The notes under the pieces: generated by a model | Databases searched by the model: none | Told to the model about the DNA's origin: nothing | Seen by the model: only the letters and a program-made list of their open reading frames with translations | Program-made: the position numbers and the translations under genes | In this document: piece by piece, positions 55,377 through 63,895 of the stretch | How the letters are laid out: every line of letters starts with the position of its first letter | Position numbering within the stretch: position 1 is the first letter of the stretch | Assembly (NCBI GenBank): GCA_947630035.1 | Contig: CANRFW010000001.1 | Location: 1 to 63,895 of the forward strand | DNA length: 63,895 bases | DNA from: an uncultured Clostridia bacterium | GTDB taxonomy: Bacteria > Bacillota > Clostridia > Christensenellales > Borkfalkiaceae | Direction: 5' to 3'

Positions 55377-56522
55377 ATGCGAGTTACGGGCATTGAGGTC
55401 GGGGAGCGAGAGAAAAAGGCAATCGAGAGTATCTATCGGTACCTGAAGGAAGCCTTCCCGCTTGCGGAATATGACGACCGCGGGGAGATCCTCGGGATCG
55501 GGGAGCCGGGCAGGCGGCTTCTCTGCTATTTCTCCGTGGACGCGGGGGGACTGCGCATCAAATTCAAGGATAGCAAGGCAGTTCACCTTTCCGAAAATAT
55601 CGATTGGGTCCCCATGGCGGACAGTGCGGTCCGCCTCTTCCGCGAGAACGGTTTTGCTCTGAAGCAGGAGGGGTATGCGCCGAAGCGGGAGAGGAAGAAG
55701 GTCCCCGTAAAAGAGACGAAGATCCCCGAAAATCGCACCCCATCCGATAAAAATAAGCTGCAAGGGGGGCTGGAGGACTATCTTTACGGGCTCGGGGAGG
55801 AGATGGCGGAGATCCCCGAGAGCGCAAGGGGATGCAAATTCGGCGGCTGTTCCGTCAGGCTCTTTCATTGCCTTCAGGACCTCGGCGTCGTCACCGTCGG
55901 GGACCTTTTCCGCTACACGCCCGCGGAGATCTGCAGAACGAAAAATTTCGGCAAACAGTGCCTTGCCGAACTCTATCGCATCCTCCGCGCGGTCAACGGG
56001 AAAGCGCCTGCTCTGACCGCCCGATCCGCTCCGCCCATGATCGATTACGAAACTTCCTACGAAGATTATAAGGCAAATGAAGATAGGTATAAAGAGCTGT
56101 ATGCCGCCCTCTCCGATCTCTTCTTCCGCCTTGCCGGGACGAAGCTCGACGAGCGGATGAGAACGGTCGTGTATGCGCGGCTCGGTCTCGGCGGGAGCGC
56201 GAAAACTTTGCGGGGGATCGGCGCCGATCTCGGCATTTCGCAGGAGCGCGTCAGACAAATTTTTGTCAAATCGATGAGAAGACTGATGAATAGTCCCCCG
56301 CTCGACATGATGAAAGAACTCCGCGAATTTCAAAGCGCGGCCGAGGCATACCCCGTCGGCGGGCTTCTTGTCTGTTGCTATCTTGAGAGCGGAGAACTCT
56401 TCACGGAGTTTGTGTGCAAACGGTTTTTCCGGCAGGAGTTGCAGAAAGACGCCCTCCGCGACGCCGTCCGCAAGGGAGGTTTGAAAGAAGGGAGCGCCGC
56501 GGGGCAAAAGGTATTCAGATAG
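55377..56522 (+). CDS. Protein combining an RNAP alpha-CTD-like HhH module with a sigma-70 region 4 HTH
   Basis: 381 aa. SVRLFHCLQDLGVVTVGDLFRYTPAEICRTKNFGKQCLAELYRIL resembles RpoA alpha-CTD. RMRTVVYARLGLGGSAKTLRGIGADLGISQERVRQIFVKSMRRL resembles sigma-70 region 4. Confidence 0.7.
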   Translation: MRVTGIEVGEREKKAIESIYRYLKEAFPLAEYDDRGEILGIGEPGRRLLCYFSVDAGGLRIKFKDSKAVHLSENIDWVPMADSAVRLFRENGFALKQEGYAPKRERKKVPVKETKIPENRTPSDKNKLQGGLEDYLYGLGEEMAEIPESARGCKFGGCSVRLFHCLQDLGVVTVGDLFRYTPAEICRTKNFGKQCLAELYRILRAVNGKAPALTARSAPPMIDYETSYEDYKANEDRYKELYAALSDLFFRLAGTKLDERMRTVVYARLGLGGSAKTLRGIGADLGISQERVRQIFVKSMRRLMNSPPLDMMKELREFQSAAEAYPVGGLLVCCYLESGELFTEFVCKRFFRQELQKDALRDAVRKGGLKEGSAAGQKVFR

Positions 56523-56605
56523 GGAAGCGCTCTTCCGCGTTGTAGGCGAGAACGAAGTCTTCCGCATTTTTCCGATTTCGGATGATTTCGGGATATTGTC
56601 GCACG

Positions 56606-56654
56606 GGAAATTTCCGAAAAAAGGAAATTTCCGTTTTCCGCATGGTGTTACAAT
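56606..56654 (+). promoter_or_regulatory. Twin palindrome operator plus extended -10 promoter
   Basis: GGAAATTTCC at 56606-56615 and 56623-56632, TGtTACAAT at 56646-56654, and the ATG at 56661 after a 6-nt gap. The same arrangement lies at 59076-59124. Confidence 0.55.
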
Positions 56655-56660
56655 AGCTTC

Positions 56661-57128
56661 ATGCCTACCGTTCAGATCAAGACTTTGGAACTGCTTATCA
56701 TCCGTGAACTCCGCGGCATGAACCGTTATAACGCGAGGGCGCACGCGGCATTTGCGCAAATGCGCCTGCACTTCTCAAACGAAGAATATCTCCACGGGAT
56801 CGAGCATAGCAAGATCATCAAGAAGATCTATATCGATAACTTTTATAAATACCGCACCGCCGAGGCGCTCTCGCAGGAGCTGCATATCGACGTGAAATCC
56901 CTGCTTCTCTACCGTAAATATTATCTCCGCTTCTTTGCGAAATCCTATCTTCTTCTCTCCGTTCCGACCGAGGCCGACCTCGCTTTGCTTTACGAAGCCC
57001 TTACTTCGAACCGTGCGGAACAGCTCGAACAGACGGAGGACCCGCAGAGATCGCGGGAACCGCAAGGGGCGGGGGAGCCGCGCTACCCGGAGAAGGAACT
57101 CTTTCCCGATATCGTCTTCCGGCGATAG
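56661..57128 (+). CDS. Hypothetical HTH-like small regulator (ArpU/RinA- or sigma-region-4-like), paralog 1
   Basis: 155 aa, identical to paralog 2 through residue ~129 (..EQTEDPQ). A possible HTH is YRTAEALSQELHIDVKSLLLYRKYY. The family assignment is tentative. Confidence 0.6.
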   Translation: MPTVQIKTLELLIIRELRGMNRYNARAHAAFAQMRLHFSNEEYLHGIEHSKIIKKIYIDNFYKYRTAEALSQELHIDVKSLLLYRKYYLRFFAKSYLLLSVPTEADLALLYEALTSNRAEQLEQTEDPQRSREPQGAGEPRYPEKELFPDIVFRR

Positions 57129-57141
57129 GGCACAGCCTTCC

Positions 57142-58131
57142 TCATGAGATCTTAAAATATCTCTGATTTCTGCTTGTCGGTCTGTCGGGGCAGGTCATGC
57201 CGATCAATCCCGCCTCCAGTGCGGGGATAAGATAATTTTGCCGAAAACCGTTTCTCGACTTCAAACCGAGTTTTTCCATAAGTTCCCGTGCGGACATGGG
57301 GTAGACCTCAATGACGGACATGAGCGCGGCGATTTGATGATTGATATGATTGATATGGTTTCGCGTATCCGAAACGATCCCCTCAATTGCCGCTTTTATC
57401 ATGTCAAGCATAAATAAAATGAACCGATCGGATTTACCCTCGGAGGTCGAAAGGGAAATCGCGCGGTAATATTCTTCCTGATGATCTTTGATCAGGCTTT
57501 CAATGGGGATCCACTCAAAAATCGGTTTCCACTTTGCAAGCAATGCCGTTTGCCACAGCCTGCCCATTCTTCCGTTTCCGTCGAGGAAGGGGTGTATGAA
57601 CTCAAACTCATAATGAAAAACGCACGATTTGATGAGGATATGCGTTTTACTTGTATTGAGCCAATGAAAGAGTTCGGCAACCAATTCATGGACCATAGAA
57701 TGGGGCGGCGCAACATGAATGACTTTCCCCTGTTCATTGATTACGCCCACAGGCGCAGTACGCAGATGCCCTGCCTCCTCGACCAAATCTTTCATCATGA
57801 GTGCATGGGCTTTCAATAGATCCGATAGGGAGTACGGATTCAACTCGGGGAGGAGGGCGTACACGCTATGTGCATTCCTGACGGCCGAAATATCGTCCTT
57901 GGGCGCAAGTACCCTTTTCCCTTCGATGACATCCGTCACTTGCTCCAAGGATAAGGTATTGTTTTCAATCGCAAGGGAAGAATGAATCGACTTGATCCGA
58001 TTGATACGGCGCAGCCTGGGCAATTTATCTAAATTCCGGATGCCGTTCATCTGTCCTAAAAGTTCCATAATGTCCGACGTCAACCCGAGCATCTCCTCGG
58101 TAATCTCATAAGGGGGAATATATTGGTCCAT
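57142..58131 (-). CDS. fic: Fic family protein (class II with N-terminal inhibitory motif, C-terminal wHTH-like domain)
   Basis: 329 aa with Fic motif HPFLDGNGRMGRLW and inhibitory S-x-x-x-E-N motif SLAIEN. SD AAGGAGG. Confidence 0.9.
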   Translation of the reverse strand: MDQYIPPYEITEEMLGLTSDIMELLGQMNGIRNLDKLPRLRRINRIKSIHSSLAIENNTLSLEQVTDVIEGKRVLAPKDDISAVRNAHSVYALLPELNPYSLSDLLKAHALMMKDLVEEAGHLRTAPVGVINEQGKVIHVAPPHSMVHELVAELFHWLNTSKTHILIKSCVFHYEFEFIHPFLDGNGRMGRLWQTALLAKWKPIFEWIPIESLIKDHQEEYYRAISLSTSEGKSDRFILFMLDMIKAAIEGIVSDTRNHINHINHQIAALMSVIEVYPMSARELMEKLGLKSRNGFRQNYLIPALEAGLIGMTCPDRPTSRNQRYFKIS

Positions 58132-58823: not shown

Positions 58824-59130
58824 AAAACACCTCCTGCTTATAAAATGATCGGGGGGCAAAATGCCCCGCAAAACAACGATCCTTTCCGATTTCATTCTAC
58901 CATAGAACCGCAAAGAAATCAAGCCCGAATTTTGGGGGAGAGGAGAAGCGGCTCGAAAAGCGGCCGCCGCGTCACAAGGGATATTCTGATGGGGCAGCGC
59001 TCTTCCGTGTTGCAGGCGAGAACGAAGTCTTCCGCATTTTTCCGATTTCGGATGATTTCGGGACATTGTCGCACGGGAAATTTCCGAAAAAAGGAAATTT
59101 CCGTTTTCCGCATAGTGTTACAATAGCTTC

Positions 59131-59670
59131 ATGCCTACCGTTCAGATCAAGACTTTGGAACTGCTTATCATCCGTGAACTCCGCGGCATGAACCGTTATA
59201 ACGCGAGGGCGCACGCGGCATTTGCGCAAATGCGCCTGCACTTCTCAAACGAAGAATATCTCCACGGGATCGAGCATAGCAAGATCATCAAGAAGATCTA
59301 TATCGATAACTTTTATAAATACCGCACCGCCGAGGCGCTCTCGCAGGAGCTGCATATCGACGTGAAATCCCTGCTTCTCTACCGTAAATATTATCTCCGC
59401 TTCTTTGCGAAATCCTATCTTCTTCTCTCCGTTCCGACCGAGGCCGACCTCGCTTTGCTTTACGAAGCCCTTACTTCGAACCGTGCGGAACAGCTCGAAC
59501 AGACGGAGGACCCGCAGGGAGCGTGGGAGCCGCAGGGGACGCAGGAGTTGCAGAGAGTGTTGGAGCCGCAGGGGACACAGGAGTTGCCGAGAGTGCGGGA
59601 ACCGCAGGAGATGAGGGAGCCGCGCTACCCGGAGAAGGAACTCTTTCCCGATATCGTCTTCCGGCGATAG
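59131..59670 (+). CDS. Hypothetical HTH-like small regulator, paralog 2 with an expanded C-terminal repeat
   Basis: 179 aa. It matches paralog 1 except that the C-terminal tail carries EPQGTQELQRVL and EPQGTQELPRVR units. Confidence 0.6.
   Translation: MPTVQIKTLELLIIRELRGMNRYNARAHAAFAQMRLHFSNEEYLHGIEHSKIIKKIYIDNFYKYRTAEALSQELHIDVKSLLLYRKYYLRFFAKSYLLLSVPTEADLALLYEALTSNRAEQLEQTEDPQGAWEPQGTQELQRVLEPQGTQELPRVREPQEMREPRYPEKELFPDIVFRR
59510..59625 (+). repeat. In-frame tandem repeat (36-nt units) in the paralog 2 C-terminus
   Basis: GAGCCGCAGGGGAC(G/A)CAGGAGTTGC(A/C)GAGAGTG(TT/CG)G at 59527-59562 and 59563-59598, flanked by shorter EPQ/EPR units. These units are absent from paralog 1. Confidence 0.85.
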
Positions 59671-59979
59671 GGCACGGCCTTTGAAAAAGCCTCGGCGAAA
59701 TCTTCCCATCCAAAGTCAAATCGAACTTGTCTTTTACGGCAGCGGCTAATCTTGTTTTATCGCCAATACCATTCGCTCTTTATGGCACTTTTGCGGGTGC
59801 TTGACCGCGAAGCAGCGCGGCCAAGCACCCGCAAAACCGTAAAAACCAAAAAAAGTCATCGAACAAATAGGGATCCCGAAGAAGATTGCGGGGCAAGATT
59901 TTTTGAAAAAAAGTGCAACATGAAAAGCAGCTCTTGCCGCTTGCGGGAAGAGTGTAAAAAATTTGCGTCAGCGAAAGCA

Positions 59980-60290
59980 ACGGCGGCGCAAGGGATATTC
60001 AGATAGGGAAGCGCTCTTCCACGTTGTAGGCGAGGCCGAAGTCTTCCGCATTTTGCCAATTTTGGATGATCTCGAGACATTCGACGAATGCGTATTTCTC
60101 ACCGAGGGCGAACGGAACGTTCTCCATCCCGTTCAATTCTTCGAGATGGTATTCCAGTAGATCGATCAAAAATTGCAAAACTTCCTCTGCAGACTGTTTC
60201 ATTTGTACCACCCACTATGAAAATAGTGTAACACCCCGGCGCGCGGAAAATTTCCGAAAAAAGGAAATTTCGGTTTTTTTGCATCTTCTT
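59980..60290. repeat. Cassette copy R3 (partial, retains the intact small gene)
   Basis: 60011-60090 aligns with 56527-56600 and 58997-59070. Palindromes GGAAAATTTCC (60245-60255) and GGAAATTTCG (60263-60272) are present. The rightward 155-aa gene is missing. Confidence 0.8.
59999..60202 (-). CDS. Hypothetical 67-aa protein, the intact version of the gene remnant in R1/R2
   Basis: MKQSAEEVLQFLIDLLEYHLEELNG... with SD GGGTGG and TGtTACACT upstream on the minus strand. Its C-terminus IIQNWQNAEDFGLAYNVEERFPI matches the frame remnants EIIRNRKNAEDFVLA.N.EER in R1 and R2. Confidence 0.55.
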   Translation of the reverse strand: MKQSAEEVLQFLIDLLEYHLEELNGMENVPFALGEKYAFVECLEIIQNWQNAEDFGLAYNVEERFPI

Positions 60291-60819
60291 CGACGCAAAA
60301 AGCACCGCTCCCGTCCCTGCATTTTGTCAAGGCACCCTTGCGCAGTATTATAGCAAAGAGGAAAGACAAAGGCAAGATTCGGACGAAAAAATTTTTCAAA
60401 TCATAACAAACGCCCCGATAGCGAAGGAAGTCCACGGGGGTTTTCTTTTTATGGGAAGAAGACGACCGCGGGAAGAAATTGCCACTCTTCCGATTGCAGG
60501 CAAAGAAAAAACCTAAACCGTCACTTTGCATAAGTGTTCGATTTAGGTTGAGAGTGGTGAGGTGGACGTTAATTATCCGAACACCGTTTTTCCCGTAAAA
60601 GACGGATTTGGCTTTATGATTTGGCTTTAAAATCTATAAAAACTGCTGATTTTCCGCCAATAAATGTATGGATTCCGCGGGATTGACTGCAGTTTCATTT
60701 CAGTACATTCACATTGAAATATGTGCTAAAATTGTCTTGTGCCGCCTTAAATCACAGACGGTGCAAGAACTATTTTAGGAGGAATTTTTGAAAGTGATTC
60801 GATATATAGACGAGATGAC

Positions 60820-60848
60820 TTGATTAATTTGTAAAAAAGAATTATAAT
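60820..60848 (+). promoter_or_regulatory. Sigma-A type promoter of the ATPase gene
   Basis: TTGATT (60820-60825), 17-nt spacer, TATAAT (60843-60848). SD AAGGAG precedes the ATG at 60887. Confidence 0.6.
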
Positions 60849-60886
60849 AAAGAAAATATTCTAGCATATCCGCAATAAGGAGAAAA

Positions 60887-62376
60887 ATGAACGCAAAAGC
60901 AGAAACTTTACTTGCAATGTACGAGGCATCGAAACGCTATACAAATTTCGGGGAAGTTATTTGTCGGCTTGATATAAACGGAATTAAAGGGACAAATTGC
61001 AGCATTCCTTTTGATTTCCCCATCACGGCAATTTCGGGATATAATGGGGCAGGGAAAAGTACGATAGCGCAAATCGCATTATGCGCCTACAAGGAAGTTG
61101 ATATAGACAGCCATCGAAGTTACTTAAAAGAGATTTCTTTGTAAAAACACTTTTGGACAAGCAACCGTACTTGCCGGAAGCAAGAATCGTAGTGTCGTAT
61201 GCTTGTGAAGAACAAAGAGAACATGCTATCCAGTTGTCGATATTTTCCAACGATGAAGCAGATAGATATACCAAACAAATTCAAATGCGTTATGCGACTG
61301 ATCGATGGGCGGGATACAGGCATCAACCGAGCCGAAGAGTCTTCTATTTTGGAATGAGTTATTTCATCCCGTATCAAGAACTAAACCGCAATCTTTTAAG
61401 GGATGGCCGTGCGAATATTAGGACTAGCAAGTCTTATGACTCTCGTATCGTGAAGTTGGCGGCGGATATTTTATCCATTGCTTATACCGAATTGCAAAAT
61501 AACAAGGTTGTAAATGAAAAGCGTGAAACGCAAGTAATTTCCGCAAAAAAATCCACAGTCGCATATTCGGAGAATCACATGGGGTGCGGTGAAGGGCGTC
61601 TATTAAAGTTGATAGATGCTTTAGAGAATGCGCCTAATCAAAGTTTGTTTGTAATTGAGGAGCCGGAAACAGCACTCCATCAATTAGCGCAACATAAATT
61701 GTCCCAGTATTTTTTAGATGTTTGTTTGCGGAAGCGCCACCAAATCATTTTTACTACGCATTCTTCCGATCTGTTGACTGCATTGCCGCCGCAAGGGCGT
61801 AAATTTTTGATTCGGGGAGAATCACAATCTCAAGTGGTGAACAATCCTACAATTGCCGAAGTAACCAATTTATTATCTGGTGGGAATAATAAGGGATTAA
61901 CAATAGTTACAGAGGATAAGGTGGCGGCAGAGTATCTGAAAGAAATAATACGCAACAACGCGCACCTGTTTGACAACTGCGCCATTTATCCCTTGGACAC
62001 CAGTTATTCAGAAGTGAAAAAATATGTGGAATATGCGAGAAGATGCTCCTTCGCAGTATGCGGCATAGTGGATGAGAGCCGAAGAGCCGATGCGGAAAAG
62101 TTTATTGTAGCATTCCCGGAAGATAATCCACCCGAAAGAACTTTTTTCGGCGACGAATATATTAAAACATTTTTGCTCAATGAATATGGTTTTGATTGTG
62201 CAAAACAACTTCTGCAAGCCCATCACGAATATTTTTCCACGCTGAGTAGTGCCACAGGTGACAGTATTGATTATTTGCTTCCGCGTATTGTCAAAGAATA
62301 TGTGAGAAGCCGTCCCAAGGGATATTTTGATTTTCTTTATAATAATTTAGAAAAGTGGTTAGGTGACCTAAAATAA
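60887..62376 (+). pseudogene. OLD/PARIS(AriA-AriB)-like ABC-type ATPase with a C-terminal Toprim/DUF4435-like region, split by a frameshift
   Basis: ORF 60887..61144 carries Walker A GYNGAGKST. ORF 61153..62376 carries MGCGEGR, Walker B LFVIEEPETALH, H-loop FTTHSS, then TIVTEDKVAAEY...GIVDESRRAD. The two frames overlap at 61102-61144. Confidence 0.65.
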
Positions 62377-62384
62377 ACACGTAG

Positions 62385-62424
62385 GTTGAGGCGGTCTCGA
62401 ATTATATCGTGACCGCCTCAATTT
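62385..62424. terminator. Bidirectional hairpin terminator
   Basis: TTGAGGCGGTC (62385-62395) pairs with GACCGCCTCAA (62410-62420), followed by TTT, between convergent genes. Confidence 0.75.
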
Positions 62425-62450
62425 GCAAACTTTCAGAAATTCAATCAATA

Positions 62451-63125
62451 TCAAAGCCTTCTTTTTGAAAGGCGCTTAAAATAATTCTTATAAAAATCAT
62501 GCATCGAGCCGAAGAAGTCTCGTTCCGAGGCGCTGTTTTCCCCGCGCTCCCGTTTGAGATTGATCAGTTCAAACGTCGTGATTAGGTCTGCGATCTGGAA
62601 CAGCCGATAGTTCGCGGGCTTGATTTTGCGTCGGAAATCCACGCTTGCGTCGTGCAAAAGAGACGCCAAAATTCCCGTGAGTTGTTTTTGTCCGCCGTCA
62701 TAATAGACGACAAGTCGATCGAATCCGCCTAAAAATTGGGCATGGTCATCCAAAAAATCTTTGATCTTTTTCGAGAGCGCGCCGATAAGCTGAAATTCGT
62801 TCATTTGCTCTTCTTTTTCTACCACAAAAACGGCGTATGTAAATGGGATCTTCGCGGCAAAGTTCATGAAACTGTTGAGCAGTTGTTTCCGTTCGTCGAT
62901 TGTCCAATACTGATAGGGCGGCTCTCGGCGGATGAGCGGCGCGGTATGCAGACAATGATCTTGAAATCCCCGCGCGGAGAGATGCCCGTCAAGCCGCGAG
63001 AGTTCTTCCTTGATGCTTTCGCTTTGGTCGTGAAAGAGCATTGTCACCAAATAATACGGCGCGCGCTTGTCATATTTCCCGAAATCGCCCGATTCGTCTA
63101 TGAAAATGCTTAAAAGTTTTTCCAT
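62451..63125 (-). CDS. DUF3800 domain protein
   Basis: 224 aa. The N-terminal LSIFIDESGDFGKY is the hallmark DUF3800 start, and the gene has AT-rich codon usage. Confidence 0.75.
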   Translation of the reverse strand: MEKLLSIFIDESGDFGKYDKRAPYYLVTMLFHDQSESIKEELSRLDGHLSARGFQDHCLHTAPLIRREPPYQYWTIDERKQLLNSFMNFAAKIPFTYAVFVVEKEEQMNEFQLIGALSKKIKDFLDDHAQFLGGFDRLVVYYDGGQKQLTGILASLLHDASVDFRRKIKPANYRLFQIADLITTFELINLKRERGENSASERDFFGSMHDFYKNYFKRLSKRRL

Positions 63126-63207
63126 CGTAAAAAAATTTGGCGAGGAATACCCCCGCCGCGGTGGGCCTCGGGAATTTCAACCCAGCCCGTAATTATTTTC
63201 TACTATT

Positions 63208-63235
63208 ATTATAACCGATTTTAAAGAATTGTCAA
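63208..63235 (-). promoter_or_regulatory. Sigma-A type promoter of the DUF3800 gene
   Basis: The minus strand reads TTGACA (63235-63230), 16-nt spacer, TATAAT (63213-63208). Confidence 0.55.
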
Positions 63236-63383
63236 CCCTTTTGTGCCAAGTTTTTTACGGCTACCTGCCGAAATAAAGTAAACGGCGGGCAGAAAATTCT
63301 CTGCCCGCCGTGCCGCTTTTTATGATCGGGATACGAAGCGACGAACCCAACCGCCATCCTCGGCGGCTACATCCCTATGGTTT

Positions 63384-63572
63384 TCAATGGGATATTTTAT
63401 CGTTTTCTTTTTTATTTAGTTGTTGTTTCCGCCGCTCGGCTTGCCACTCTTCAAACTCTCTTCTTCCTTCTTCCGTTTCAAATAATTGTTGAATCGAGGG
63501 CAATATCGCGCGCGCCAGCGTTTCGATCTCATAGTCGGGGATCCCCGTCCTATTTTTGCGCCTACGTCCCAT
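63384..63572 (-). CDS. Hypothetical small protein
   Basis: 62 aa (MGRRRKNRTGIPDYEIETLARAILPSIQQLFETEEG...). There is no well-placed SD. A downstream hairpin lies at about 63283-63309. Confidence 0.4.
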   Translation of the reverse strand: MGRRRKNRTGIPDYEIETLARAILPSIQQLFETEEGRREFEEWQAERRKQQLNKKENDKISH

Positions 63573-63619
63573 CCTGTGTCAGTCGATAAAATTACCTCCT
63601 TGTAAGATTTATTCAGTTG

Positions 63620-63895
63620 TCATTTTCCGTCTTTGCCGCTGTGATTGATTCTGATAGGCGTGTAGCACGCGGCGGGGTTGAGTTTCCGTCTGGACTTGGA
63701 GAGGAGGTCTTTATACTCGCTCGGATACGCCGTTTCCATGTCCCTGATCGCGCTCGCCGCGTCCTCGTTCCTGTGCGCCCGCCGTTCCGCATCCTGCCAA
63801 TCTTGAAAGAGGTTTCCTACCTCTCTTTGAAGTCGCTTCTGTTCCACGCGGTAGGCGGCGTTCTCCGCCCGCAATCGGGTGATCTCCTGTTCGCT
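63620..63895 (-). CDS. 3' end of a larger gene (coiled-coil C-terminus), 5' part outside the window
   Basis: The frame stays open to the window edge (SEQEITRLRAENAAYRVEQKRLQREV...). The tracked M at 63874 is an internal TTG. A possible mobilisation or recombination protein C-terminus is speculation. Confidence 0.45.
   Translation of the reverse strand, partial: SEQEITRLRAENAAYRVEQKRLQREVGNLFQDWQDAERRAHRNEDAASAIRDMETAYPSEYKDLLSKSRRKLNPAACYTPIRINHSGKDGK

What the first reader, a model, noticed from the sequence alone, without database searches (positions are those of the whole stretch)
60530..63300. AT-rich island: OLD/PARIS-like ATPase-Toprim gene convergent with DUF3800, a candidate defence module
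A roughly 2.8-kb segment is markedly AT-rich against GC-rich flanks. It carries two convergent genes with their own consensus promoters (60820-60848 and 63208-63235) and a shared hairpin terminator (62385-62424).

- **Gene 1** encodes an ABC-type ATPase with GYNGAGKST, MGCGEGR, LFVIEEPETALH and FTTHSS. Its C-terminal region has acidic motifs (TIVTEDKVAAEY, GIVDESRRAD) like those of the Toprim/DUF4435 nucleases in OLD, Gabija GajA and PARIS AriB.
- **Gene 2** is a DUF3800 protein (IFIDESGDFG).

To my knowledge this pairing is not a named system. The composition, autonomy and neighbours (Fic, a repeat cassette, a possible mobilisation gene) fit a horizontally acquired defence islet. An untranslated 350-bp AT-rich leader (60530-60886) with a tandem 13-bp repeat (60605-60629) precedes it.
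Basis: partly seen in the sequence, partly recalled or inferred. Interest (0 to 1): 0.7.

Follow-up and report, generated by a model that had tools for sequence, protein, structure and literature searches.

The report
Broken HEC-04/IbfA defence gene beside DUF3800
The segment holds two unrelated neighbours, a frameshift-inactivated copy of a known single-gene anti-phage ATPase-nuclease (HEC-04/IbfA family) and a DUF3800 RNase H-like gene with its known leader RNA motif, so it is not a new two-gene defence system.

Summary
The described features are all present. Gene 1 (60887-62376, +) is a member of the HEC-04/IbfA family: a single-protein ABC ATPase-Toprim anti-phage system that has already been tested experimentally (PADLOC HEC-04, E=1.2e-50). 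It is broken here by a 2-nt GA insertion at 61130-61133. The same lesion occurs in four independent metagenome assemblies, and one of those also carries a 13-nt deletion, so this is a decaying pseudogene.

Gene 2 (62451-63125, -) is an intact DUF3800 protein with an RNase HII-like predicted fold. Its 5' leader carries a divergent copy of the Rfam DUF3800-XI RNA motif (63142-63189). That motif scores above Rfam's threshold upstream of 15 of 20 related DUF3800 genes.

The two genes have separate histories. DNA homology to an intact relative of gene 1 ends exactly at the DUF3800 stop codon. The closest relatives of each gene have other neighbours. Among about 97 ATPase loci and about 100 DUF3800 loci, only one other locus (L027) has both genes, and there they lie in a different orientation.

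Verdict: this is a mosaic, low-GC, horizontally acquired defence/MGE islet. It holds a known kind of defence gene (dead) and a known protein-RNA module of unknown function. The proposed new pairing is not supported.

The parts
60698..62451 (+). ATPase-Toprim cassette: promoter, gene and hairpin. This is the unit shared with the intact homolog contig L001.
   Evidence: blastn gives 88% identity between L001 389-2141 and window 60698-62451. Homology stops at the last base of the DUF3800 stop codon.
60820..60848 (+). Sigma-70-type promoter TTGATT-17-TATAAT of the ATPase gene. The SD AAGGAG lies at 60877-60882.
   Evidence: Found by the promoter scan. Both hexamers are conserved in L001. The SD was read from the sequence.
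60887..61144 (+). N-terminal fragment of the disrupted gene (85 aa). It contains the Walker A motif GYNGAGKST (K57).
   Evidence: ORF list; Pfam AAA_23/SMC_N; invariant G51 N53 G54 G56 K57 S58.
61130..61133 (+). Frameshift lesion: GAGA where intact relatives have GA (a 2-nt insertion). It gives a stop at 61142-61144.
   Evidence: Alignment to L001. The identical split products occur in four ENA assemblies, L181-L184.
61132..62376 (+). Remainder of the ATPase-Toprim reading frame (listed as ORF 61153-62376, 407 aa). It holds the ABC signature and Walker B (MGCGEGR, LFVIEEPETALH), the H-loop (TTHS) and the C-terminal Toprim-like domain.
   Evidence: Pfam AAA_15 3.7e-16 and AAA_21 8.1e-14. PADLOC HEC-04 1.2e-50. 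AF2 model with pLDDT 86.7, top PDB matches OLD 6p74 and GajA.
61897..62112 (+). Toprim-like core (residues 337-408 of the repaired 495-aa protein). It has beta-alpha-beta topology, invariant E342/D343 (61912-61917) after strand 1, and D395 (62071-62073) after strand 3. The second Asp of DxD is replaced (D-E-S).
   Evidence: Family alignment; model secondary structure; weak Pfam OLD-like_TOPRIM hits in 4 of 19 family members, none for this copy.
62381..62426 (.). Strong hairpin between the convergent genes. It belongs to the ATPase cassette.
   Evidence: -31.8 kcal/mol, z = -7.7. Conserved in L001 with a compensatory pair change.
62451..63125 (-). Intact DUF3800 gene (224 aa) with an RNase HII/H2-like fold. 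It has an N-terminal IDESGD motif and invariant D10 E11 H32 D143 Q177 D180 E201.
   Evidence: Pfam DUF3800 3.8e-10; alignment; AF2 pLDDT 93.6; Foldseek matches to RNase HII/H2/H3, E about 3e-4.
63139..63189 (-). DUF3800-XI-type leader RNA. Hairpin 1 is GGGCUGG...CCCGAGGCCC. Hairpin 2 is GGCGGGGG-UAUU-CCUCGCC, followed by a U-run that ends 3 nt before the ATG.
   Evidence: Rfam RF02975 full-length match at 63142-63189, 25.6 bits (GA 37.8), E=0.0074. The same motif scores above GA upstream of 15 of 20 related DUF3800 genes. Leader alignment and folds. Terminator-like hairpin at 63157-63139.
63208..63235 (-). Consensus promoter TTGACA-16-TATAAT driving the leader RNA and DUF3800.
   Evidence: Promoter scan, 12 of 12. 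Conserved in L012, L014 and L015.
63282..63311 (.). Bidirectional terminator-like hairpin that bounds the DUF3800 module upstream.
   Evidence: Terminator scan, 12-13 pairs on both strands.

Best explanation
The segment is a junction of two independent modules inside a larger low-GC, horizontally acquired islet.

**Module A (60698-62451).** This is a self-contained cassette with its own promoter and terminal hairpin. It encodes a HEC-04/IbfA-family protein of about 495 aa.
- By inference from the family, the N-terminal ABC ATPase acts as a sensor/switch, and the C-terminal Toprim nuclease is the effector that cuts nucleic acid on phage infection. Both activities are needed for defence in the tested HEC-04 protein.
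- In this lineage the gene is dead. A GA insertion separates the Walker A segment (85 aa) from the rest (407 aa). A sister population carries a further 13-nt deletion.
- Loss may have been favoured by toxicity (inferred).

**Module B (62451-63235, minus strand).** This is a DUF3800 RNase H-like gene preceded by a DUF3800-XI-type structured leader: two hairpins, the second followed by a U-run.
- This is the known DUF3800 protein-RNA association, and its function is still unknown.
- Most likely the RNase H-fold protein acts on, or is controlled by, this RNA (inferred).

The two modules were brought together by recombination or insertion. They do not form a system.
For: **Family assignment of gene 1.**
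- PADLOC HEC-04 scores 1.2e-50, far ahead of NsnB, ATPase-Toprim_I-B, AriA, GajA and Old.
- Payne et al. describe HEC-04 as a single ABC ATPase-TOPRIM protein whose K62A and E319A/D375A/D377A mutants lose defence, and they note apparent toxicity.
- tblastn hits annotated ibfA on IncI1 plasmids at 28% identity. IbfA is reported as a HEC-04 homolog.
- The AF2 model's best PDB matches are OLD (6p74) and GajA.
- The alignment has invariant E342, D343 and D395.

**Gene 1 is a pseudogene.**
- Homologs are intact at about 495 aa.
- The lesion is a GA insertion relative to L001.
- The same split ORFs occur in four ENA assemblies, and L182 carries an additional 13-nt deletion.

**The two modules are independent.**
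- L001 homology covers window 60698-62451 only. L012 homology covers 63255-62473 only.
- L001 and L188 have a DUF6998 gene as neighbour.
- P0021 and P0018 are embedded in type I RM systems.
- The commonest neighbours of 83 ATPase loci are ResIII, SNF2, DEAD and DUF1156.
- The DUF3800 HMM finds only L027 among ATPase loci, and no ATPase among 80 + 18 DUF3800 loci.

**Module B.**
- Pfam DUF3800 and an RNase HII-like fold.
- Rfam DUF3800-XI in the leader and above GA in 15 of 20 relatives.
- Weinberg et al. 2017 describe 11 DUF3800-associated RNA motifs.
- An RNase H2-like fold is also reported by Mestre et al. 2020 and Altae-Tran et al. 2023.
Against: - One other genome (L027, an Oscillospiraceae MAG) also has DUF3800-XI RNA, DUF3800 and a HEC-04-like gene (37% identity). 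There they are adjacent and codirectional. That makes 2 of about 11 Clostridial ATPase contexts, more than pure chance if placement were random.
- The window's leader scores below Rfam's gathering threshold.
- The window copy's own C-terminal domain has no Pfam Toprim hit, and the second Asp of DxD is replaced.
- No experiment was possible.
Confidence: 0.82

Rival explanations
1. One reading: the ATPase-Toprim gene and DUF3800 are the two components of an unnamed two-gene defence system. The ATPase-nuclease would work with an RNase H-like partner.
For: - The two genes are adjacent in the window and, in another arrangement, in L027.
- DUF3800 domains accompany other defence systems: retron type VII, Cas12a2/a3 and the Cas13 CASK operon.
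Against: - Co-localisation is seen in 1 of about 97 and 0 of about 100 surveyed loci.
- The nearest relatives of each gene have other neighbours.
- DNA homology breaks exactly at the gene junction.
- Orientation differs between the two known cases.
- HEC-04 defends as a single gene.
- In this lineage the ATPase decays while DUF3800 stays intact, which is not expected for obligate partners.
- DUF3800 has no PADLOC hit.
Confidence: 0.04
2. A loose, non-obligate association. DUF3800/DUF3800-XI modules would mark or create variable slots in mobile or defence islands. Defence genes such as HEC-04-like genes would repeatedly land there, or DUF3800 would modulate adjacent effectors.
For: - There are two independent juxtapositions with divergent ATPases, in the window and in L027.
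- The genes downstream of DUF3800 are highly variable: 40 unrelated clusters.
- Some DUF3800 neighbours are RM, Abi or PDC genes.
- Both families occur on IMG/VR contigs.
Against: - Most DUF3800 neighbours are ordinary or HTH genes.
- The sample of juxtapositions is n=2.
- No mechanism is known.
Confidence: 0.1
3. The frameshift is an assembly error or a programmed frameshift, and gene 1 is functional.
For: Apart from the GA insertion, the frame is open for 407 codons and is 91% identical to intact relatives.
Against: - The identical lesion is present in four independently assembled metagenomes and in the NCBI record.
- It is a dinucleotide insertion, not a homopolymer-length error.
- There is no slippery heptamer or SD before the second ORF (sequence).
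- One variant has a second, 13-nt deletion.
Confidence: 0.04

Closest known systems
HEC-04 (Hma-embedded candidate 04; PADLOC PDLC04149), Payne et al. 2024 bioRxiv 10.1101/2024.01.29.577857
   Same: - Single protein of about 495 aa, with an N-terminal ABC ATPase and a C-terminal Toprim-like domain.
- Strong HMM match: 170.6 bits, covering profile positions 92-401 of 494.
- Relatives are embedded in helicase/methylase (Hma-like) and type I RM systems.
- The Walker A Lys, the Toprim Glu and the first Asp are conserved.
   Different: - The window copy is frameshifted and non-functional.
- It is free-standing rather than embedded.
- The Firmicute clades carry D-E-x in place of the D-x-D metal motif.
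- Identity to proteobacterial members is about 30-35%.
IbfA of IncI1/R64-type plasmids (PMC12111858)
   Same: A two-domain ATPase + TOPRIM abortive-infection/defence protein. tblastn matches annotated ibfA over residues 9-353.
   Different: Identity is only 28% and the match covers the ATPase part only. IbfA is plasmid-borne in Enterobacteria, whereas this copy is chromosomal in a GC-rich Clostridial (Oscillospiraceae-like) genome.
OLD-family nucleases / Gabija GajA / PARIS AriA-AriB
   Same: - ABC ATPase plus Toprim architecture.
- The best structural matches of the model are OLD 6p74 and GajA.
- Sequence-profile matches cover the ATPase region.
   Different: - The matches are much weaker than to HEC-04.
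- There is no GajB helicase and no separate AriB/DUF4435 protein next to it.
- The inserts in the ATPase differ (Payne et al.).
DUF3800 proteins with DUF3800-XI RNA (Rfam RF02975; Weinberg et al. 2017, PMC5737381)
   Same: The DUF3800 gene is immediately preceded by the two-hairpin motif with a terminator-like 3' end. The position and sequence (GGGCUGG...GG(U/C)CCACC...GGCGGGG) match the family consensus.
   Different: - The window clade (with L012, L014, L015) has a remodelled inner stem-loop and scores 25.6 bits, below the 37.8 threshold.
- The U-run abuts the start codon with no Shine-Dalgarno sequence.
DUF3800 domains in retron type VII, TPR-DUF3800 of Cas12a2/a3 loci, and Csx32 of Cas13 CASK loci
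   Same: The same Pfam domain and the same RNase H2-like fold.
   Different: There is no RT, Cas, TPR or kinase gene here. This is a stand-alone 224-aa protein.

Membership tests
HEC-04 / IbfA single-gene ATPase-Toprim defence | Significant match to the family profile over most of the protein | tested here: met
   PADLOC PDLC04149 HEC-04, E=1.2e-50, 170.6 bits. The next-best family scores 5e-18.
HEC-04 / IbfA single-gene ATPase-Toprim defence | ABC ATPase with Walker A Lys, signature, Walker B and H-loop | tested here: met
   GYNGAGKST (K57), MGCGEGR, LFVIEEPE and TTHS are invariant in 46 homologs. Pfam AAA_15/AAA_21. ABC/SMC-head structural matches.
HEC-04 / IbfA single-gene ATPase-Toprim defence | C-terminal Toprim domain with a Glu and a DxD metal site | tested here: inconclusive
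   - Toprim-like beta-alpha-beta topology with invariant E342/D343 and D395.
- Whole-chain matches to OLD and GajA.
- Pfam OLD-like_TOPRIM is only weak, in 4 of 19 relatives, with nothing for this copy.
- The second Asp is replaced (DES).
HEC-04 / IbfA single-gene ATPase-Toprim defence | Autonomy: no conserved partner gene | tested here: met
   - It has its own promoter and hairpin.
- Neighbours differ between loci.
HEC-04 / IbfA single-gene ATPase-Toprim defence | Intact reading frame / anti-phage activity | tested here: not met
   The frame is broken by a 2-nt insertion that is fixed in the lineage. Activity is not testable with these tools.
PARIS (AriA + AriB) | Separate AriB DUF4435/Toprim protein next to an AriA ATPase | tested here: not met
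   - The AriA profiles score only 1e-16 on the ATPase part.
- DUF4435 scores E=0.09 in 1 of 19 relatives.
- There is no second Toprim gene.
Gabija (GajA + GajB) | Adjacent UvrD-like helicase GajB | tested here: not met
   - No helicase ORF lies in 58-63.9 kb.
- The GajA profiles score 5e-11 or weaker.
Pfam DUF3800 (PF12686) | Profile match above the gathering score, with the N-terminal DE motif and C-terminal QxxD | tested here: met
   41.1 bits against a cut-off of 21. D10-E11 and Q177..D180 are invariant.
Rfam DUF3800-XI RNA (RF02975) | Covariance-model score at or above the gathering score (37.8 bits) | tested here: not met
   25.6 bits, E=0.0074, full-length alignment. The closest relatives L012, L014 and L015 also fall below GA.
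Rfam DUF3800-XI RNA (RF02975) | Location next to a DUF3800 gene, conserved hairpin 1 and a terminator-like hairpin 2 | tested here: met
   - The motif lies 17-64 nt upstream of the DUF3800 start.
- The same architecture is seen in relatives that score 42-74 bits.
- Hairpin 2 shows covariation (L158, L178).
Retron type VII (RT + DUF3800) | Reverse transcriptase gene or fusion, plus msr/msd | tested here: not met
   - Apart from the two genes, no ORF longer than 125 aa lies in 60.3-63.9 kb.
- There is no retron RNA hit in Rfam.

The most novel reading that the evidence does not exclude
DUF3800 with its DUF3800-XI RNA is itself an RNA-dependent defence or MGE-control module. It would recurrently recruit, or sit upstream of, exchangeable effectors, among them HEC-04-like ATPase-Toprim nucleases (the window and L027). 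This would parallel TPR-DUF3800 with Cas12a2/a3 and Csx32 with Cas13. On this reading the window preserves a decayed example of such a combination.
Probability: 0.06. Interest if true: 0.75.

Novelty: new member of a known kind. Interest (0 to 1): 0.22.

Why it matters
- The finding removes a false lead. The 'unnamed ATPase-Toprim + DUF3800 system' is really an inactivated HEC-04/IbfA-family gene lying next to an unrelated module.
- It documents a Firmicute branch of the HEC-04 family. That branch has D-E-x in place of D-x-D, and some of its members are embedded in type I RM loci.
- It gives a natural example of a defence gene decaying in a gut Clostridial population.
- The more interesting open question it touches is an old one: what DUF3800 RNase H-like proteins do with their many unrelated leader RNAs. 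This locus adds a divergent DUF3800-XI variant but does not make that question newly testable.

Tried and rejected
- **Sequence-profile search of the isolated C-terminal domain against PDB.** It gave only spurious hits to designed TIM barrels. The Toprim assignment therefore rests on the model, the conserved residues, weak Pfam hits in relatives and homology to HEC-04.
- **NCBIfam.** It gave only generic ABC hits.
- **PHROGs for neighbouring small ORFs and DUF3800.** Nothing useful was found.
- **A conserved protein partner downstream of DUF3800.** The nearest relatives have tightly coupled downstream ORFs of 162-240 aa. These ORFs are unrelated to each other and are absent in many loci, so the idea was rejected.
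- **Rfam at gathering threshold on the whole window.** There were no hits; the leader motif appeared only in the E-value search.
- **cow-rumen-3 (RF03083) match at 63160-63309.** At 24.2 bits against GA 86.7, it is probably just two shared hairpins. It spans the promoter, so it was not pursued.
- **A loose regex for hairpin 1.** It is non-specific in GC-rich genomes, so the covariance-model results were used instead.
- **Flanking repeats of the ATPase cassette.** No convincing terminal repeats were seen.
Full report
**Observation**

ORF listing and sequence reading confirm two convergent genes.
- Gene 1 is split into 60887-61144 (85 aa, Walker A GYNGAGKST) and 61153-62376 (407 aa).
- Gene 2 is 62451-63125 on the minus strand (224 aa, IFIDESGDFG).

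GC content is 33-43% over gene 1 and 45-49% over gene 2, against about 60% for most of the window. The immediate flanks are not GC-rich: a lower-GC island starts near 56.4 kb and continues to the window end.

The other described features are also real.
- Both promoters are found by the scan: TTGATT-17-TATAAT at 60820-60848 and TTGACA-16-TATAAT at 63235-63208.
- The inter-gene hairpin folds at -31.8 kcal/mol, z = -7.7.
- The 13-bp tandem repeat at 60605-60629 has 1.9 perfect copies.

**What gene 1 is**

I first repaired the frame by eye with one extra residue, then exactly by comparison with L001. The repaired 495-aa protein gives these results:
- Pfam finds only the ATPase families, AAA_15 (3.7e-16) and AAA_21 (8.1e-14).
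- PADLOC gives HEC-04 at E=1.2e-50. The next hits are far weaker: NsnB, ATPase-Toprim_I-B, AriA, GajA and Old, at 5e-18 to 1e-8.

HEC-04 is described by Payne et al. [quoted passage not shown] According to that paper:
- it protects E. coli from phages;
- a Walker A mutant (K62A) and a metal-site mutant (E319A/D375A/D377A) lose defence;
- it shows apparent toxicity on induction.

The plasmid gene ibfA is reported as a HEC-04 homolog (PMC12111858). tblastn of the window protein hits annotated ibfA on IncI1 plasmids at 28% identity over residues 9-353.

The protein search returned 160 homologs, nearly all intact at about 480-505 aa, and the best is 91% identical. An alignment of 46 of them shows invariant ATPase motifs. 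In the C-terminal domain, E342, D343, D395, P415-E416 and H446 are invariant.

An AlphaFold2 model (pLDDT 86.7) has a beta-alpha-beta-alpha-beta core at residues 337-408. E342 follows strand 1 and D395 follows strand 3, which is the Toprim arrangement. The model's best PDB matches are the full-length OLD nuclease 6p74 and GajA.

Sequence-only support for Toprim is weak.
- Pfam OLD-like_TOPRIM hits 4 of 19 relatives (best E=0.0011) and does not hit the window copy.
- A PDB profile search with the isolated domain found nothing meaningful.
- In the Firmicute clades the DxD motif reads D-E-x. In the proteobacterial, bacteroidetal and other distant clades of the alignment it reads D-x-D.

**Gene 1 is a pseudogene in this lineage**

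The contig L001 carries the 91%-identical intact gene. Aligned to it, the window has GAGA where L001 has GA (61130-61133), which shifts the frame and gives a stop at 61142-61144.

The exact 85-aa and 407-aa products are on record from other assemblies. Four independent ENA metagenome contigs (L181-L184) carry the same lesion at 99.3-100% DNA identity. One of them, L182, has an additional 13-nt deletion at window 62016-62028. In all of these contigs the DUF3800 gene is intact.

The lesion is therefore real and fixed, and decay is continuing.

**Are the two genes a pair?**

Four lines of evidence say no.

*DNA homology.* L001 matches window 60698-62451 only. This covers promoter, gene and hairpin, and ends at the last base of the DUF3800 stop codon. 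L012 and L013, which carry an 86%-identical DUF3800, match 63255-62473 only.

*Neighbours of the intact close relatives of gene 1.*
- L001 and L188 have a convergent DUF6998 gene.
- The 53-56%-identical relatives are embedded between hsdS and hsdR of type I RM systems.

*Survey of ATPase loci.* I examined 80 loci from one-genome-per-species contigs plus metagenome and IMG/VR loci.
- An HMM of the DUF3800 subfamily found a neighbour only in L027.
- Pfam scanning of 150 immediate neighbours of 83 distinct loci gave ResIII (14), SNF2 (12), DEAD (12) and DUF1156 (10) as the commonest families. This is the Hma/RM-embedded pattern.

*Survey of DUF3800 loci.* None of 80 metagenome and 18 IMG/VR DUF3800-subfamily loci has the ATPase. 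Their neighbours are heterogeneous, and the genes downstream fall into 40 unrelated clusters.

The exception is L027, an Oscillospiraceae MAG. It has DUF3800-XI RNA, then DUF3800, then, 62 nt downstream and codirectional, a HEC-04-like gene only 37% identical to the window's. Two juxtapositions in different orientation fit co-residence in variable or defence regions better than an obligate system. I keep a loose association as a minor rival.

**What gene 2 is**

Gene 2 matches Pfam DUF3800 (41 bits) and has no PADLOC hit.

Its AlphaFold2 model (pLDDT 93.6) matches RNase HII/H2/H3 structures at E of about 3e-4. The N-terminal IDESGD resembles, from my own knowledge, the RNase HII DEAG motif. 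The literature reports the same RNase H2-like fold for DUF3800 in three settings:
- retron type VII (PMC7736814);
- Cas12a2-associated TPR-DUF3800 proteins (PMC10910872), with Cas12a3 loci frequently carrying TPR-DUF3800 genes as well (PMC13594972);
- Csx32 of Cas13 CASK loci, which contains the DUF3800 domain.

Weinberg et al. 2017 (PMC5737381) found 11 unrelated structured RNA motifs next to DUF3800 genes.

An Rfam E-value search of 60300-63895 gave a full-length match to DUF3800-XI (RF02975) at 63142-63189 on the minus strand. This lies in the DUF3800 leader and scores 25.6 bits, below the gathering score of 37.8 (E=0.0074). At gathering threshold the same family is found directly upstream of DUF3800 in 15 of 20 related loci at 42-74 bits, including L027.

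Leader alignments show a shared architecture: promoter, hairpin 1 (GGGCUGG...GG(U/C)CC), ACCG, hairpin 2 plus a U-run, then the start codon. Hairpin 2 shows covariation. The window clade (with L012, L014, L015) has a remodelled inner stem and no Shine-Dalgarno sequence between the U-run and the ATG.

**Mechanism**

*Shown.* The family membership, the motifs, the lesion and the independence of the modules are shown by the results above.

*Inferred, module A.* Before its inactivation, module A worked like HEC-04/IbfA: an ABC ATPase sensor coupled to a Toprim nuclease effector, acting alone.

*Inferred, module B.* This is the DUF3800 protein-RNA unit. I favour an RNase H-fold enzyme that acts on, or is gated by, its leader RNA, but the function is unknown in the literature.

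**Context**

Upstream of 56.4 kb the window encodes ordinary chromosomal functions: ABC sugar transport, an AraC regulator, a glycosidase and an ADP-ribosylglycohydrolase.

The island contains:
- a SoFic-like Fic gene;
- a lipoprotein-like ORF;
- duplicated modules, with 56488-56787 about 95% identical to 58958-59257 and a third partial copy at 59983-60081.

This fits a mosaic, horizontally acquired islet.

**Verdict**

Gene 1 is a new, dead member of a known kind. Interest is low.

Noticed in passing
window 63139-63189 (-): The DUF3800-XI-type leader RNA scores below Rfam's threshold. In this clade the U-run of hairpin 2 ends 3 nt before the DUF3800 ATG and there is no Shine-Dalgarno sequence. 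More distant relatives (L027, L103, L160, L178) keep a spacer with an SD. How the gene is translated is unexplained.
   Followed up: partly
window 63160-63309 (-): There is a weak full-length match to Rfam cow-rumen-3 (RF03083): 24.2 bits against GA 86.7. Its 3' hairpin coincides with DUF3800-XI hairpin 1 and its 5' hairpin coincides with the 63282-63311 terminator-like hairpin. This may mean cow-rumen-3 is an extended DUF3800-associated motif.
   Followed up: no
L027 3871-6215: An Oscillospiraceae MAG contig carries DUF3800-XI RNA (74.4 bits), then DUF3800 (231 aa), then a codirectional HEC-04-like gene (505 aa). It lies near a serine recombinase and XRE regulators. It is the only other juxtaposition of the two families found.
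   Followed up: partly
L182 (window 62016-62028 equivalent): A sister metagenome contig has a second lesion in the ATPase gene, a 13-nt deletion, in addition to the shared GA insertion. DUF3800 stays intact.
   Followed up: yes
window 56488-57139, 58958-59681, 59983-60081 and 60240-60277: Segmental repeats of 87-95% identity include a palindrome (CGAAAAAAGGAAATTTCCGTTTTCCG) and paralogous ORFs of 155 and 179 aa with no family hits. The 179-aa copy contains an 18/36-nt tandem repeat (59502-59609). The repeats bracket the Fic and lipoprotein genes, which suggests serial accretion or recombination of related elements.
   Followed up: partly
window 57142-58131 (-): A Fic/DOC protein with a Fic-like_C domain matches PADLOC SoFic at 2.3e-41. 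A 72%-identical Fic gene fragment also lies 5.7 kb upstream of a HEC-04-like gene in L008.
   Followed up: partly
alignment A1, residues 395-397 of the repaired protein (window 62071-62079): The Firmicute clades of the HEC-04 family carry D-E-x where the proteobacterial, bacteroidetal and other distant clades have the Toprim D-x-D motif. The mutated residues in the tested HEC-04 were E319, D375 and D377.
   Followed up: partly
L002-L011 (contexts of P0021 and P0018): HEC-04-like genes of gut Clostridia are embedded between hsdS and hsdR of type I RM systems. These loci also hold phase-variable hsdS/integrase shufflons and other small genes (DUF2971, DUF4268, nSTAND NTPase nearby). This extends the 'embedded defence' pattern from Hma to type I RM.
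   Followed up: partly
window 60605-60629 and 60584-60605: A perfect 13-bp tandem repeat (GATTTGGCTTTAT x1.9) lies directly after a terminator-like hairpin. It is outside the part of the intergenic region that is homologous to the intact cassette in L001. Its meaning is unknown.
   Followed up: partly
window 59999-60211 (-): A 70-aa ORF (MVQMKQSAEEVLQFLIDLLEYHLEEL...) has a C-terminal coding end that is part of the thrice-repeated 99-nt element. It has no family hit.
   Followed up: no
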